Under the pieces are notes generated by a model. That model was not told the DNA's origin and did not search any database. It was given only the letters and a program-made list of their open reading frames with translations. Shown here piece after piece: positions 1-39,507 of a DNA stretch of 64,000 bases (its first letter is position 1; each line of letters begins with the position of its first letter). The DNA lies in assembly GCF_046105845.1 (NCBI RefSeq), contig NZ_CP151004.1; one strand, 5' to 3'. The position numbers and the translations under genes are program-made. The DNA comes from Escherichia coli (GTDB taxonomy: Bacteria > Pseudomonadota > Gammaproteobacteria > Enterobacterales > Enterobacteriaceae).

Positions 1-574
1 TTCTACCACCAACAACGTCGAACGCCAAAAACAGGCGGCTTTCTCTGACACTATTTTCGTGGTCGGTACGCGCCTGTTGACCAAAAAGGGTGGCGATATC
101 AAAGATTTCGCCGATCTGAAAGGCAAAGCCGTAGTCGTCACTTCCGGCACTACCTCTGAAGTTTTGCTCAACAAACTGAATGAAGAGCAAAAAATGAATA
201 TGCGAATTATCAGCGCCAAAGATCACGGTGACTCTTTCCGCACCCTGGAAAGCGGTCGTGCCGTTGCCTTTATGATGGATGATGCTCTGCTGGCTGGTGA
301 ACGTGCGAAAGCGAAGAAACCAGACAACTGGGAAATCGTCGGCAAGCCGCAGTCTCAGGAAGCCTACGGTTGTATGTTGCGTAAAGACGATCCGCAGTTC
401 AAAAAGCTGATGGATGACACTATCGCTCAGGTGCAGACCTCCGGTGAAGCGGAAAAATGGTTTGATAAATGGTTCAAAAATCCCATTCCGCCGAAAAACC
501 TGAACATGAATTTCGAACTGTCGGACGAAATGAAAGCACTGTTCAAAGAACCGAATGACAAAGCACTGAACTAA
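1..574 (+). CDS. gltI: Glutamate/aspartate ABC transporter periplasmic binding protein, C-terminal part (5' end lies outside window)
   Basis: Open frame from position 2 with no stop; translation ...DTIFVVGTRLLTKKGGDIKDFADLKGK... matches GltI C-terminus; followed by gltJKL. Confidence 0.9.
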   Translation, partial: STTNNVERQKQAAFSDTIFVVGTRLLTKKGGDIKDFADLKGKAVVVTSGTTSEVLLNKLNEEQKMNMRIISAKDHGDSFRTLESGRAVAFMMDDALLAGERAKAKKPDNWEIVGKPQSQEAYGCMLRKDDPQFKKLMDDTIAQVQTSGEAEKWFDKWFKNPIPPKNLNMNFELSDEMKALFKEPNDKALN

Positions 575-730
575 TTACAAGAACCAGGGGCGGAAATTCC
601 AGCCCTCTCGATTGTTACGTAGCACGGACAGACTATACGCCTGATGGTCGTTCCCCATCGGGCCTGAAAACCGCAATACGCTGGGTAACAATCTTCGAGG
701 GTAGCAGTTAACGCTGCTACCCTCTTTTTT
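570..730 (+). ncRNA. sroC: Probable SroC sRNA locus in the gltI-gltJ spacer (ends at intrinsic terminator)
   Basis: Established knowledge that SroC is processed from the gltI-gltJ intergenic part of the gltIJKL mRNA; 169-nt spacer ends in a strong hairpin plus T-tract; exact 5' end not determinable from sequence. Confidence 0.45.
697..730 (+). terminator. Intrinsic terminator/attenuator between gltI and gltJ
   Basis: GAGGGTAGCAG-ttaacg-CTGCTACCCTC stem followed by TTTTTT. Confidence 0.75.
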
Positions 731-743
731 CTGGAGTAGATTT

Positions 744-1484
744 ATGTCTATAGACTGGAACTGGGGTATTTTTTTACAACAAGCCCCGTTCGGCAACACC
801 ACCTATCTTGGTTGGATCTGGAGTGGTTTTCAGGTCACGATCGCTTTGTCGATCTGCGCCTGGATTATCGCTTTCCTCGTCGGTTCATTTTTCGGCATTT
901 TACGTACCGTTCCAAACCGTTTTCTCTCCGGTCTGGGTACGTTGTATGTCGAACTGTTCCGCAACGTGCCGTTGATTGTGCAATTCTTTACCTGGTATCT
1001 GGTGATCCCGGAGCTGCTGCCGGAGAAAATCGGCATGTGGTTTAAGGCCGAGCTGGATCCCAATATTCAGTTTTTCCTTTCATCCATGCTCTGCCTGGGG
1101 CTGTTTACCGCCGCCCGTGTTTGCGAACAGGTACGCGCCGCGATCCAGTCGCTGCCGCGTGGGCAGAAGAATGCCGCGCTGGCGATGGGTCTGACGCTGC
1201 CGCAGGCTTACCGCTATGTACTGTTGCCTAATGCTTATCGCGTTATCGTCCCGCCGATGACCTCCGAGATGATGAACCTGGTGAAAAACTCCGCCATCGC
1301 CTCGACCATCGGTCTGGTGGATATGGCGGCGCAGGCGGGTAAATTGCTCGACTACTCGGCCCACGCCTGGGAGTCGTTTACCGCCATCACGCTGGCGTAT
1401 GTGTTGATTAACGCGGTTATCATGCTGGTAATGACGCTGGTTGAACGTAAAGTTCGCCTGCCCGGCAACATGGGGGGCAAATAA
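744..1484 (+). CDS. gltJ: Glutamate/aspartate ABC transporter permease
   Basis: 246-aa ORF, polytopic membrane protein, second gene of gltIJKL order. Confidence 0.95.
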
Positions 1485-2158
1485 TGTACGAGTTTGACTG
1501 GAGTTCCATTGTCCCTTCCCTGCCATATCTGCTCGACGGGCTGGTGATCACCCTGAAAATCACCGTCACGGCAGTCGTGATTGGTATTTTGTGGGGCACC
1601 ATGCTGGCGGTGATGCGCTTGTCCAGCTTTGCGCCCGTAGCGTGGTTTGCCAAAGCCTACGTTAACGTATTCCGCTCGATTCCTTTAGTTATGGTTTTGC
1701 TGTGGTTTTACCTGATTGTGCCGGGTTTTCTGCAAAACGTGCTGGGATTATCGCCAAAAAATGATATCCGTTTAATTTCGGCGATGGTGGCGTTTTCGAT
1801 GTTTGAAGCGGCCTACTATTCAGAGATTATCCGCGCCGGTATTCAAAGTATTTCTCGTGGTCAGTCGAGCGCCGCGCTGGCGTTGGGGATGACTCACTGG
1901 CAGTCGATGAAACTGATTATTCTGCCGCAGGCGTTCCGCGCGATGGTGCCGCTGCTGCTCACTCAGGGCATCGTACTGTTCCAGGATACCTCACTGGTGT
2001 ATGTGTTATCTCTGGCCGATTTCTTCCGTACCGCCTCAACCATTGGTGAGCGTGATGGTACGCAGGTTGAGATGATCCTGTTTGCCGGATTTGTTTATTT
2101 CGTTATTAGCCTTAGCGCATCGTTGTTGGTCAGCTACTTGAAAAGAAGGACAGCATAA
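1484..2158 (+). CDS. gltK: Glutamate/aspartate ABC transporter permease
   Basis: 224-aa ORF, start overlaps gltJ stop (ATGA-type coupling). Confidence 0.95.
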
Positions 2159-2883
2159 TGATTACCCTGAAAAATGTTTCAAAATGGTATGGTCACTTTC
2201 AGGTGCTGACCGACTGCTCAACCGAAGTGAAAAAAGGCGAAGTGGTGGTGGTTTGCGGCCCGTCTGGTTCCGGCAAATCAACGCTGATTAAAACCGTCAA
2301 CGGCCTCGAACCGGTGCAGCAAGGTGAAATCACCGTCGATGGCATCGTGGTTAACGACAAGAAAACCGATCTGGCAAAGCTGCGTTCCCGCGTCGGGATG
2401 GTGTTCCAGCATTTCGAGTTGTTCCCCCATTTGTCGATTATTGAAAACCTGACCCTGGCGCAGGTGAAAGTGCTTAAACGCGATAAAGCACCCGCTCGTG
2501 AAAAAGCATTGAAATTGCTGGAGCGCGTCGGGCTTTCCGCACATGCCAATAAGTTTCCGGCGCAGCTTTCCGGCGGTCAGCAGCAGCGTGTGGCGATCGC
2601 TCGCGCATTGTGCATGGATCCTATCGCGATGCTGTTCGACGAACCGACATCGGCGCTGGATCCGGAGATGATCAACGAAGTGCTGGACGTGATGGTGGAA
2701 CTGGCGAACGAAGGAATGACCATGATGGTGGTGACCCACGAAATGGGCTTTGCCCGTAAAGTGGCGAATCGGGTGATCTTTATGGACGAGGGTAAAATTG
2801 TCGAAGACTCGCCGAAAGACGCTTTCTTCGATGATCCGAAATCGGACCGCGCAAAAGACTTCCTCGCGAAAATCCTGCATTAA
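2158..2883 (+). CDS. gltL: Glutamate/aspartate ABC transporter ATP-binding protein
   Basis: 241-aa ORF with Walker [13 protein letters not shown] signature LSGGQQQR, Walker [12 protein letters not shown]. Confidence 0.95.
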
Positions 2884-2890
2884 TCACTCT

Positions 2891-2930
2891 GGCGCGCATA
2901 CCCAATTGCGCGCCATCTCACGCTTTATCG
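2891..2930 (+). terminator. Candidate terminator hairpin downstream of gltL
   Basis: GGCGCGCA-tacccaat-TGCGCGCC stem; weak T-tract. Confidence 0.4.
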
Positions 2931-3000
2931 TTTCGCCCCTCGTATCTGTTACATCCTGGCGTTACCCTTGTCGCAAAGAAGCACACAACAAGGAGCAACA

Positions 3001-3936
3001 ATGGCACTGCCAATTCTGTTAGATTGCGACCCAGGTCATGACGACGCTATCGCAATAGTTCTCGCCCTCGCCTCACCAGAGCTTGATGTCAAAGCAATTA
3101 CGTCTTCCGCCGGAAACCAGACACCAGAAAAAACCTTACGCAATGTTCTGCGTATGCTGACCTTGCTTAATCGCACCGATATTCCGGTAGCAGGCGGCGC
3201 GGTAAAACCGTTAATGCGTGAGTTGATTATCGCGGACAATGTGCACGGCGAAAGCGGTCTCGACGGCCCGGCATTACCGGAACCGACGTTCGCACCGCAA
3301 AACTGTACGGCGGTAGAGCTGATGGCGAAAACACTACGTGAAAGTGCGGAACCTGTCACGATTGTTTCTACCGGACCGCAAACTAACGTTGCCTTGCTGC
3401 TCAATAGCCACCCGGAACTGCATAGCAAAATTGCCCGTATCGTGATTATGGGCGGTGCAATGGGGCTTGGTAACTGGACGCCTGCGGCTGAATTTAATAT
3501 TTACGTTGACCCGGAAGCGGCAGAAATTGTCTTCCAGTCAGGGATCCCGGTGGTGATGGCCGGTCTGGATGTTACTCACAAAGCACAAATTCACGTTGAG
3601 GACACCGAGCGTTTCCGCGCCATTGGCAACCCTGTTTCAACCATTGTTGCCGAACTGCTGGATTTCTTCCTCGAATATCATAAAGACGAAAAATGGGGCT
3701 TTGTCGGCGCACCGCTGCATGACCCATGCACCATCGCCTGGCTGTTAAAACCGGAGTTGTTTACCACTGTTGAGCGCTGGGTTGGCGTGGAAACACAAGG
3801 GAAATATACCCAGGGTATGACGGTTGTTGATTATTATTATCTGACCGGCAATAAACCGAATGCTACTGTAATGGTCGATGTTGATCGTCAGGGCTTTGTT
3901 GATTTACTGGCTGATCGTCTGAAATTTTACGCTTAA
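3001..3936 (+). CDS. rihA: Pyrimidine-specific ribonucleoside hydrolase RihA
   Basis: Translation from [15 protein letters not shown] (nucleoside hydrolase DxDxxxDD motif); AAGGAG RBS just upstream; longer ORF start at 2968 rejected. Confidence 0.9.
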
Positions 3937-35292: not shown

Positions 35293-35521
35293 TCCTCTGA
35301 TTTACAAAAGACGCTAATTCGTCTTCCATAAACCATGACGATTAAGATTTATACATAATGCGCTGCATTGAGGAATTCCCTGAATGTGACGCAAATCACT
35401 TCAAAGAGTGAGCAACAGTCAGTATCATCATGTGAGTTAAACCCTCGCCGCCTGACGGTGAGGGTTTTCTTTTGGGTATGTTTATCTGCGACACTCGCAG
35501 TACCGACGACATGGAGTAAAA

Positions 35522-39136: not shown

Positions 39137-39507
39137 CTATACTTCCTCCGTGTTTTCGATGAGATGTAAGGTAACCAATTTTTGCCGATTCGGCTAATGC
39201 GTTTCCATTATCAAATCGATAAGTTTTACCTTACAACCTTCGTAAGACAACTTTGTGAACTTTGCACCGCCAGCGGCGATAAAAAGTAAAATGGCCCCCT
39301 TTCCAGGTGACCGTGTAATCTGAACTACCCTTTGGTATCTTCAGCGCCTGCCTGCAGGCTGAGGTGTTGCCCTTACAAATGCAACAACGACATGGATTAC
39401 AACACCCTCATAAACAAAGGGCAATCACCTGATCTAAGCTCTTACCTATGACAGTGATAGGTTATGCCTTTTACTCGACTTTTGCACTGACTGAAAAGGA
39501 CAAATTA

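What the first reader, a model, noticed from the sequence alone, without database searches (positions are those of the whole stretch)
575..743. gltI-gltJ spacer: internal attenuator and probable SroC sRNA
Seen in sequence: a 169-nt spacer ends in a strong GC hairpin plus TTTTTT immediately before the gltJ start, consistent with differential expression of the binding protein versus the permeases. Established knowledge: the GcvB-sponge sRNA SroC is generated from this part of the gltIJKL mRNA. Exact ends cannot be set from sequence alone.
Basis: partly seen in the sequence, partly recalled or inferred. Interest (0 to 1): 0.3.

Follow-up and report, generated by a model that had tools for sequence, protein, structure and literature searches.

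The report
Known SroC sRNA, gltI-gltJ spacer
This stretch is the already well-studied E. coli small RNA SroC, cut from the end of the gltI message and ended by a leaky terminator in front of gltJ; it is ordinary and already annotated.

Summary
gltI stops at 572-574 and gltJ starts at 744, leaving a 169-nt spacer. The spacer ends in a 12-bp hairpin (697-724) followed by TTTTTT (725-730), 13 nt before the gltJ ATG.

Rfam's sroC model (RF00369) matches window 570-732(+) full length at 174.8 bits (gathering score 45). Those 163 nt are identical to the ncRNA sroC (b4763) annotated in E. coli K-12 MG1655. The stretch is present in 5421 of 5426 complete E. coli genomes.

Both published GcvB-pairing sites are intact, 14 nt apart: BS1 GGACAGAC at 626-633 and BS2 UCGUUCC at 648-654. 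They include the two cytosines validated by compensatory mutation. The fold is supported by covariation across 43 enterobacterial homologues.

Published work shows a leaky Rho-independent terminator that yields a monocistronic gltI mRNA. RNase E with Hfq trims that mRNA to stable SroC, which pairs with GcvB and triggers its decay.

SroC starts 5 nt inside gltI (570) and ends at 732. There is also no evidence for regulated attenuation as opposed to constitutive leakiness.

Novelty: already known. Interest: low.

The parts
1..574 (+). 3' part of gltI (periplasmic Glu/Asp-binding protein; the window begins inside the gene), stop TAA at 572-574. It is the parental mRNA of SroC.
   Evidence: ORF ending at 574. 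gltI is annotated under the 100% matches in E. coli genomes. K-12 annotation.
570..732 (+). SroC small RNA, 163 nt, derived from the gltI 3' end and UTR
   Evidence: Rfam RF00369, 174.8 bits, model positions 1-163 of 163. 163/163 identical to K-12 sroC b4763.
570..586 (+). Unpaired A/U-rich 5' leader of SroC (ACUAAUUACAAGAACCA), containing the gltI stop codon. The processed 5' end is at 570.
   Evidence: Unpaired in the MFE and centroid folds. 5' end as annotated in K-12. RNase E/Hfq-dependent processing is from PMC4474525, shown in Salmonella.
587..606 (+). Stem-loop 1 (GGGGCGGA AAU UCC A GCCCU)
   Evidence: MFE fold. A hairpin forms at this place in all 43 homologues despite different stem sequences such as GGGAGG/CCUCCC, GGGCGAG/CUUGCCC and GGGCAGG/CCUGCCC.
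610..693 (+). Long composite stem-loop 2: outer stem 610-618/685-693 and apical stem 639-647/655-663
   Evidence: MFE fold. RNAalifold recovers it with compensatory changes at 3 apical pairs. Pair counts are 93-99% paired in these helices.
626..633 (+). GcvB binding site BS1, GGACAGAC (SroC 57-64), complementary to GcvB 156-163 GUCUGUCC (region R3/SL4)
   Evidence: Exact 8-nt Watson-Crick block against K-12 gcvB; local duplex -15.3 kcal/mol. Invariant in 43 of 43 homologues and not part of the search pattern. SroC C60-GcvB G160 corresponds to the Salmonella C63-G160 compensatory pair.
648..654 (+). GcvB binding site BS2, UCGUUCC (SroC 79-85), the 7-nt apical loop of SL2, complementary to GcvB 13-19 GGAACGA (SL1)
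   Evidence: Exact 7-nt block; duplex -10.9 kcal/mol; unpaired probability 1.00. SroC C84-GcvB G14 corresponds to the Salmonella C87-G14 compensatory pair. Lies 14 nt from BS1, as published.
697..730 (+). Rho-independent (leaky) terminator: 12-bp hairpin 697-724 with a 4-nt loop, then U6 tract 725-730. It makes the SroC and monocistronic gltI 3' end.
   Evidence: Terminator scan; folds. Stem base and T-tract conserved in all 43 homologues. 'Leaky Rho-independent terminator' is from PMC4474525.
733..736 (+). GGAG Shine-Dalgarno-like sequence of gltJ, 7 nt before the ATG
   Evidence: Read from the sequence. GGAG/AGGAG is conserved in the alignment.
744..2883 (+). gltJ (744-1484), gltK (1484-2158) and gltL (2158-2883): permease and ATPase genes, expressed only from transcripts that read through the terminator
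   Evidence: ORFs. Same order as in the K-12 annotation.

Best explanation
Window 570-732(+) encodes SroC, the 163-nt Hfq-binding small RNA derived from the 3' end of the gltI mRNA of the gltIJKL glutamate/aspartate ABC-transporter operon of E. coli.

How it works. Transcription from the single glt promoter, upstream of the window, partly stops at the intrinsic terminator at 697-730. This gives a monocistronic gltI mRNA, and so more binding protein than permease. The rest reads through into gltJKL.

5'-end-dependent decay of the gltI mRNA by RNase E, guided by Hfq, stops at position 570. It leaves a very stable, tightly folded RNA with a 5' monophosphate.

SroC then pairs with the sRNA GcvB through two short sites: 626-633 with GcvB R3/SL4, and 648-654 with GcvB SL1. 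This triggers RNase E cleavage of GcvB. The decay de-represses the many amino-acid transport and metabolism mRNAs that GcvB silences, including gltI itself.

What is shown here: the identity, coordinates, fold, terminator, complementarity and conservation. What is taken from the literature and not testable here: termination leakiness, RNase E/Hfq processing, GcvB decay, and further targets (MgrR, fliE/flhBAE).
For: Identity and presence:
- Rfam sroC hit, full length, 174.8 bits against a gathering score of 45.
- 163/163 identity to annotated K-12 sroC b4763, in the same position relative to gltI and gltJ.
- Present in 5421 of 5426 complete E. coli genomes, at >=99% identity in 5271.

Structure and terminator:
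- Stable fold, z = -6.5.
- Canonical terminator hairpin plus T6.
- The fold is supported across 43 homologues from Escherichia, Citrobacter, Kluyvera, Klebsiella, Raoultella and Enterobacter. 93.3% of cells are paired against 34-52% when partners are slid. 108 cells show double-sided changes against 2-27 when slid. The covariation score is 0.188 against 0.044-0.065.
- 13 of 13 tested homologues score 141-177 bits on RF00369.

GcvB pairing and promoter:
- BS1 and BS2 are exactly complementary to K-12 GcvB, 14 nt apart, and include the nucleotides validated by compensatory mutation.
- BS1 is invariant in all 43 homologues although it was not used to find them.
- No sigma-70-like promoter on the + strand in 1-3200, consistent with a processed RNA.

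Literature:
- PMC4474525: leaky terminator, RNase E and Hfq processing, compensatory mutants, and the E. coli homologue being functional.
- PMC9299463: 67,138 GcvB-SroC RIL-seq chimeras in E. coli.
- PMC10250213: in E. coli SroC has a half-life above 16 min and shortens the GcvB half-life to about 4 min.
- PMC9438474: review, '163-nt SroC species'.
Against: Nothing contradicts it, but four caveats apply.
- The SroC-GcvB complementarity is not statistically unusual on its own. 31% of dinucleotide shuffles of SroC have an 8-mer complement in GcvB, and 8.8% have an 8-mer plus a nearby 7-mer. The site assignment therefore rests on correspondence with published experiments, not on statistics.
- gcvB lies outside the window, so pairing was tested against K-12 gcvB, not this strain's copy.
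- Most mechanistic experiments were done in Salmonella. E. coli support comes from heterologous and two-plasmid tests, RIL-seq and half-life assays.
- The RNA ends in this particular strain are inferred from the K-12 annotation.
Confidence: 0.97

Rival explanations
1. The spacer is only a cis-acting intercistronic terminator and stabiliser that sets the GltI-to-permease ratio. The RNA fragment it leaves is an inert decay intermediate with no function in trans.
For: The hairpin and T-tract by themselves explain differential expression. The complementarity to GcvB is not significant against shuffles. [quoted passage not shown]
Against: - About 125 nt upstream of the terminator are strongly conserved and covary as a structure, which a bare terminator does not need.
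- BS1 is invariant across 6 genera.
- Published compensatory mutations, a GcvB half-life change from 1.7 min to more than 15 min in the sroC deletion, and the chromosomal sroC** mutant.
- E. coli RIL-seq chimeras and GcvB destabilisation.
Confidence: 0.02
2. An independently transcribed sRNA gene with its own promoter inside the end of gltI, like the DapZ/MicL class of 3'UTR sRNAs.
For: Some 3'UTR sRNAs have internal promoters (PMC4474525 discussion).
Against: - No sigma-70-like promoter on the + strand in window 1-3200.
- The literature reports a 5' monophosphate and no transcription start site at the 5' end.
- SroC formation requires RNase E and a 5'-monophosphorylated precursor.
Confidence: 0.01
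3. A regulated attenuator. The conserved CCCUC at SroC 34-38 (window 603-607) competes with the identical CCCUC of the terminator's 3' arm (720-724) for GAGGG (697-701). When stem-loop 1 is kept open, for example by a ribosome terminating on the gltI stop or by a bound factor, an antiterminator helix forms and RNA polymerase reads into gltJKL.
For: - Forcing this pairing gives a coherent fold in which the helix stacks on the outer SL2 stem.
- It is the MFE for nascent prefixes of 132-150 nt when the first 20 nt are blocked, and for the unblocked prefixes of 146 and 150 nt.
- Both segments are nearly invariant.
- Miyakoshi et al. explicitly raise the possibility that a cis element or trans factor regulates termination here.
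Against: - The forced alternative is 9.2 kcal/mol worse than the terminator fold (-57.1 against -66.3), so it is negligible at equilibrium.
- Blocking up to nt 18, about what a terminating ribosome could cover, leaves stem-loop 1 and the terminator intact.
- Conservation of both segments is already explained by stem-loop 1 and the terminator.
- No covariation specific to the alternative pairing was seen.
- In E. coli 7 bp of the terminator would still form.
Confidence: 0.06
4. A protein-coding gene on the opposite strand (ORF 802..575, 75 aa, GTG start) occupies the spacer.
For: The ORF appears in the mechanical ORF list.
Against: - It overlaps the gltJ start and is not annotated in K-12.
- The conservation pattern is that of an RNA structure with indels in loops, which would break a reading frame.
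Confidence: 0.005

Closest known systems
SroC sRNA (Rfam RF00369; E. coli K-12 b4763; Vogel et al. 2003; Miyakoshi, Chao & Vogel 2015, PMC4474525)
   Same: Everything tested: sequence (163/163 against K-12), fold, gltI-gltJ location, terminator, and both GcvB pairing sites.
   Different: Nothing in the RNA itself. There is one synonymous gltI difference 8 nt upstream (window 562, AAA against AAG). Salmonella numbering is E. coli +3 (C63/C87 = C60/C84).
Other RNase E-processed 3'UTR-derived Hfq sRNAs (CpxQ, SdhX, NarS, MalH, OppZ, GlnZ)
   Same: Made by RNase E processing of a parental mRNA, share the mRNA's intrinsic terminator, carry a 5' monophosphate and bind Hfq (review PMC9438474).
   Different: SroC comes from an operon-internal leaky terminator rather than the operon's last 3'UTR. 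Its main target is another sRNA (sponge or decoy) rather than mRNAs.
Other sRNA sponges or traps (chbBC intergenic RNA against ChiX; 3'ETS-leuZ against RyhB/RybB)
   Same: A by-product of another transcript titrates or destabilises an Hfq-dependent sRNA by base pairing.
   Different: SroC uses two short sites that contact distant parts of GcvB, and it triggers RNase E cleavage. The ChiX trap instead exposes ChiX to PNPase. SroC is not co-degraded.
Intercistronic elements that raise binding-protein over permease expression in ABC operons (e.g. REP hairpins after malE)
   Same: A stem-loop after the first cistron gives excess periplasmic binding protein.
   Different: Here the excess arises from partial transcription termination rather than protection from 3' exonucleases (PMC4474525 discussion).

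Membership tests
SroC (Rfam RF00369) | Covariance-model score at or above the family's gathering threshold, over the full model | tested here: met
   174.8 bits against 45; model 1-163 of 163; E = 7.4e-37; window 570-732 +
SroC (Rfam RF00369) | Sequence identity to the experimentally defined E. coli sroC (b4763) | tested here: met
   163/163 identical; the 221-nt alignment differs only at one gltI wobble base
SroC (Rfam RF00369) | Location between gltI and gltJ on the coding strand, with the 5' end overlapping the gltI stop | tested here: met
   gltI stop at 572-574, SroC at 570-732, gltJ ATG at 744
SroC (Rfam RF00369) | 3' end formed by a Rho-independent terminator (hairpin plus U tract) | tested here: met
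   12-bp stem at 697-724 plus T6 at 725-730, -22.7 kcal/mol. Actual termination and its leakiness were not measured here.
SroC (Rfam RF00369) | Two GcvB-complementary sites (BS1, BS2) 14 nt apart, including the C residues validated by compensatory mutation | tested here: met
   626-633 against GcvB 156-163 and 648-654 against GcvB 13-19, using K-12 gcvB; matches PMC4474525. This strain's own gcvB is outside the window.
SroC (Rfam RF00369) | Conserved secondary structure (SL1, long SL2, terminator) supported by covariation | tested here: met
   93.3% paired against 34-52% when slid; 10 pairs and 108 cells with double-sided changes; compensatory pairs in the SL2 apex
SroC (Rfam RF00369) | Processed 5'-monophosphate end made by RNase E with Hfq; no own promoter | not testable with these tools
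   Only indirect evidence: no promoter-like site on the + strand. The experiments are in PMC4474525.
SroC (Rfam RF00369) | Hfq-dependent destabilisation of GcvB in vivo | not testable with these tools
   Literature only: PMC4474525; in E. coli, PMC10250213 and RIL-seq counts in PMC9299463
Regulated transcription attenuator (terminator/antiterminator switch) | A mutually exclusive antiterminator structure of comparable stability, with a sensing input (leader peptide, ligand, protein or tRNA) | tested here: inconclusive
   A 5-bp alternative (603-607 with 697-701) exists and dominates some nascent prefixes. It is 9.2 kcal/mol worse than the terminator fold, and no sensor was identified. No riboswitch or leader family hit was found here in Rfam.

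The most novel reading that the evidence does not exclude
The leakiness of the gltI-gltJ terminator may be regulated. The invariant CCCUC at 603-607 could act as a kinetic antiterminator partner for GAGGG (697-701) whenever stem-loop 1 is held open, whether by a ribosome terminating on the gltI stop 12 nt upstream, by Hfq or by another factor. That would couple gltI translation, or a trans factor, to the split between SroC release and gltJKL read-through, and so to GcvB levels. Miyakoshi et al. raised this open question. My folding does not exclude it, but gives it little support.
Probability: 0.06. Interest if true: 0.45.

Novelty: already known. Interest (0 to 1): 0.06.

Why it matters
SroC is a textbook example of an mRNA-derived sponge that controls a global regulator, GcvB, which affects roughly 1% of E. 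coli genes. It links expression of one amino-acid transporter to many others. Recognising it here only confirms correct annotation of this window and adds no new biology. The one open point is whether termination at 697-730 is regulated. That question is already posed in the literature and would need experiments.

Tried and rejected
- RNAduplex on the two full-length RNAs gave a meaningless -78.8 kcal/mol 'duplex' spanning both molecules. I used exact complementary blocks and local duplexes instead.
- The shuffle test of SroC-GcvB complementarity was not significant: an 8-mer in 622 of 2000 shuffles, and an 8-mer plus a nearby 7-mer in 176 of 2000. I do not claim the sites from statistics.
- A second 8-mer complement (SroC 101-108 against GcvB 189-196, inside GcvB's terminator stem) and several 6-7-mers are treated as chance.
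- RNAalifold on the alignment with flanks missed stem-loop 1, because indels shift its register. It also proposed spurious long-range pairs between the spacer and the gltJ coding start. Stem-loop 1 was checked by folding each sequence separately.
- The genome contigs pattern search was anchored on BS2 and its 3' flank. Conservation of BS2 in the 43 hits is therefore by ascertainment and is not evidence. The search returned no Salmonella locus, so the +3 numbering offset to Salmonella could not be traced to a specific indel or 5' end.
- A literature search for 'SroC' alone returned only 'summary ROC' meta-analyses.
- The antiterminator idea was tested and judged weak.
- The first script failed because locus L002 was not yet on disk.

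Full report
**Observation**

The window begins inside gltI. That ORF ends with TAA at 572-574, and the next ORF, gltJ, starts with ATG at 744. gltK (1484-2158), gltL (2158-2883) and rihA follow.

A consensus scan finds a terminator-like site at 697-724. It has 12 pairs (7 G-C) and a 4-nt loop, and is followed by TTTTTT at 725-730. The hairpin segment folds at -22.7 kcal/mol. After the T run come CT, GGAG (733-736), seven bases and the gltJ ATG.

**Identity**

A scan of the whole window against Rfam 15 gives a full-length match to sroC (RF00369) at 570-732 on the + strand. The score is 174.8 bits against a gathering score of 45, E = 7.4e-37.

In E. coli K-12 MG1655 the ncRNA sroC (b4763) is annotated at 686681-686843 on the minus strand. 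It overlaps the end of gltI by 5 nt and ends 11 nt before gltJ. Aligning window 540-760 with that stretch gives identity at every position except one synonymous gltI base at window 562. All 163 nt of SroC are identical.

The 221-nt stretch is present in 5421 of 5426 complete E. coli genomes, at 99% identity or more in 5271, with gltI and gltJ annotated under the match. The window is therefore E. coli and the element is the annotated sroC gene. Its 5' end (570) is the second base of the last sense codon of gltI.

**Anatomy**

Taken as RNA, 570-732 folds at -66.3 kcal/mol against -40.5 +/- 4.0 for shuffles (z = -6.5). The fold has four parts:
- an unpaired A/U-rich leader (570-586);
- stem-loop 1 (587-606);
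- a long composite stem-loop 2 (610-693), whose 7-nt apical loop is 648-654;
- the terminator hairpin (697-724) with its U tract.

**Comparative support**

A DNA pattern anchored on the SL2 loop and its 3' flank retrieved 43 loci from species-representative genomes. The genera were Escherichia, Citrobacter, Kluyvera, Klebsiella, Raoultella and Enterobacter. All lie immediately upstream of a gltJ start, and 40 of the 43 directly follow a gltI stop. Thirteen of thirteen tested score 141-177 bits on RF00369.

I mapped the E. coli fold onto the alignment and counted pairs:

| Measure | As mapped | 3' partners slid 1-3 columns |
|---|---|---|
| Cells forming standard pairs | 93.3% | 34-52% |
| Cells with changes on both sides | 108 | 2-27 |
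| Covariation score | 0.188 | 0.044-0.065 |

Ten pairs carry these double-sided changes. RNAalifold independently recovers the SL2 apex with three compensatory pairs, for example AU/CG/GC at one position. Stem-loop 1 forms in every homologue with different stem sequences.

The octamer GGACAGAC (626-633), with its flanks, is invariant in all 43 sequences. It was not part of the search pattern.

**Mechanism: what the sequence shows**

I fetched gcvB from K-12 and compared it with SroC:
- SroC 57-64 (window 626-633, GGACAGAC) is exactly complementary to GcvB 156-163.
- SroC 79-85 (window 648-654, UCGUUCC, fully unpaired) is exactly complementary to GcvB 13-19.

The local duplex energies are -15.3 and -10.9 kcal/mol. 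The two sites are 14 nt apart.

These sites correspond to BS1 and BS2 of Miyakoshi, Chao & Vogel 2015 (PMC4474525), described there as 7-8 nt sites, 14 nt apart in SroC and far apart in GcvB. The base pairs SroC C60-GcvB G160 and SroC C84-GcvB G14 are the ones validated in Salmonella by compensatory mutation, as C63G/G160C and C87G/G14C; Salmonella numbering is E. coli +3.

One caveat applies. Complementarity of this size is not rare by chance: 31% of shuffles of SroC have an 8-mer match to GcvB. The assignment therefore rests on correspondence with the experiments and on the invariance of BS1, not on statistics.

**Mechanism: what the literature shows**

From PMC4474525:
- SroC carries a 5' monophosphate, and there is no transcription start at its 5' end.
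- Its formation needs RNase E, a 5'-monophosphorylated precursor and Hfq for correct cleavage.
- Its 3' end comes from a conserved Rho-independent terminator.
- Deleting sroC or mutating both pairing sites raises the GcvB half-life from 1.7 min to more than 15 min.
- The E. coli SroC and GcvB homologues work equally.

E. coli-specific support:
- RIL-seq found 67,138 GcvB-SroC chimeras, up to about 70% of GcvB chimeras in stationary phase (PMC9299463).
- SroC has a half-life above 16 min. It lowers the GcvB half-life to about 4 min whatever its 5' phosphorylation state (PMC10250213).
- A review adds MgrR as a second sponged sRNA and fliE/flhBAE as mRNA targets (PMC9438474).

My promoter scan found no sigma-70-like site on the + strand of 1-3200, consistent with a processed RNA.

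**Is it a regulated attenuator?**

I noticed that CCCUC occurs twice: once at 603-607 (the 3' side of stem-loop 1) and once at 720-724 (the terminator's 3' arm). Both copies could pair with GAGGG at 697-701.

Three results bear on this:
- Forcing the upstream pairing gives a fold at -57.1 kcal/mol against -66.3 for the terminator fold.
- The upstream pairing is the best fold only for nascent prefixes of 132-150 nt, mostly when the first 20 nt are blocked.
- Blocking up to nt 18, about what a ribosome on the gltI stop could cover, leaves stem-loop 1 and the terminator intact.

There is no covariation specific to this alternative. I keep it as a low-probability reading (about 6%). It matches an open question stated by Miyakoshi et al..

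**Verdict**

The finding is real and correctly interpreted, but it is already known. The RNA is an annotated gene in K-12, an Rfam family and the subject of detailed mechanistic work. Nothing in this window departs from the characterised sequence. Interest is low (0.06).

Noticed in passing
window 697-724, compared with L003-L045 (alignment A2, columns 156-186): The SroC terminator hairpin comes in two lengths. Escherichia and Kluyvera (plus one related MAG) carry 9-12 extra nt that lengthen the stem to 11-13 bp, at about -20 to -24 kcal/mol (E. albertii -16.0 because of a mismatch). Citrobacter, Klebsiella, Raoultella and Enterobacter have a 9-bp stem with a 3-nt loop, at about -13.7 kcal/mol. 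The loop sequences differ between Escherichia and Kluyvera. Terminator leakiness, and hence the ratio of SroC to gltJKL, may therefore differ between genera.
   Followed up: partly
L025 2016-2148 (-); also L014 and L038 (Citrobacter braakii, Citrobacter sp. Res13, and a genome labelled C. amalonaticus S646): In three Citrobacter genomes a ~125-nt element sits between the gltI stop and SroC stem-loop 1, displacing the usual 5' leader. The element is a dispersed intergenic repeat, with 13,213 places in 4,529 E. coli genomes at 60-80% identity and no annotated feature under them. From memory it looks like an ERIC/IRU element. The Rfam sroC score drops only to about 148-150 bits. The SroC 5' end and its processing must differ in these species.
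   Followed up: partly
window 21939-22297 (-): The Rfam 'cspA thermoregulator' (RF01766) hit at 123 bits lies on cspE, not cspA. The ORF on this strand encodes [19 protein letters not shown]..., flanked by crcB/fluC and pagP. The match is mostly over the conserved cold-shock-protein coding sequence, so it should not be read as a thermosensor without further evidence.
   Followed up: partly
window 35368-35476 (+): Full-length Rfam hit to the enterobacterial rnk leader (RF01771, 124.9 bits), with its own terminator-like hairpin.
   Followed up: no
window 39281-39374 (-): Marginal Rfam hit to sRNA STnc70 (RF02069): 44.1 bits against a gathering score of 40. It spans only 94 nt of the window although the model is 149 nt long.
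   Followed up: no
window 670-677, against GcvB 189-196: A second exact 8-nt complement between SroC (ACCGCAAU) and GcvB (AUUGCGGU). It lies inside GcvB's terminator stem and is probably chance; 31% of shuffles give an 8-mer.
   Followed up: partly
L001 3352-4546 (K-12 687851-689045): K-12 MG1655 carries IS5D directly upstream of gltI. The window starts inside gltI, so whether this strain has the insertion cannot be seen. It could affect the glt promoter, and therefore SroC output, in K-12.
   Followed up: no
L004 42-84 (-), Escherichia albertii: Rfam hit to the ES036 (CssrF) sRNA (RF02751) at 45.5 bits, in the flank of the E. albertii glt locus.
   Followed up: no
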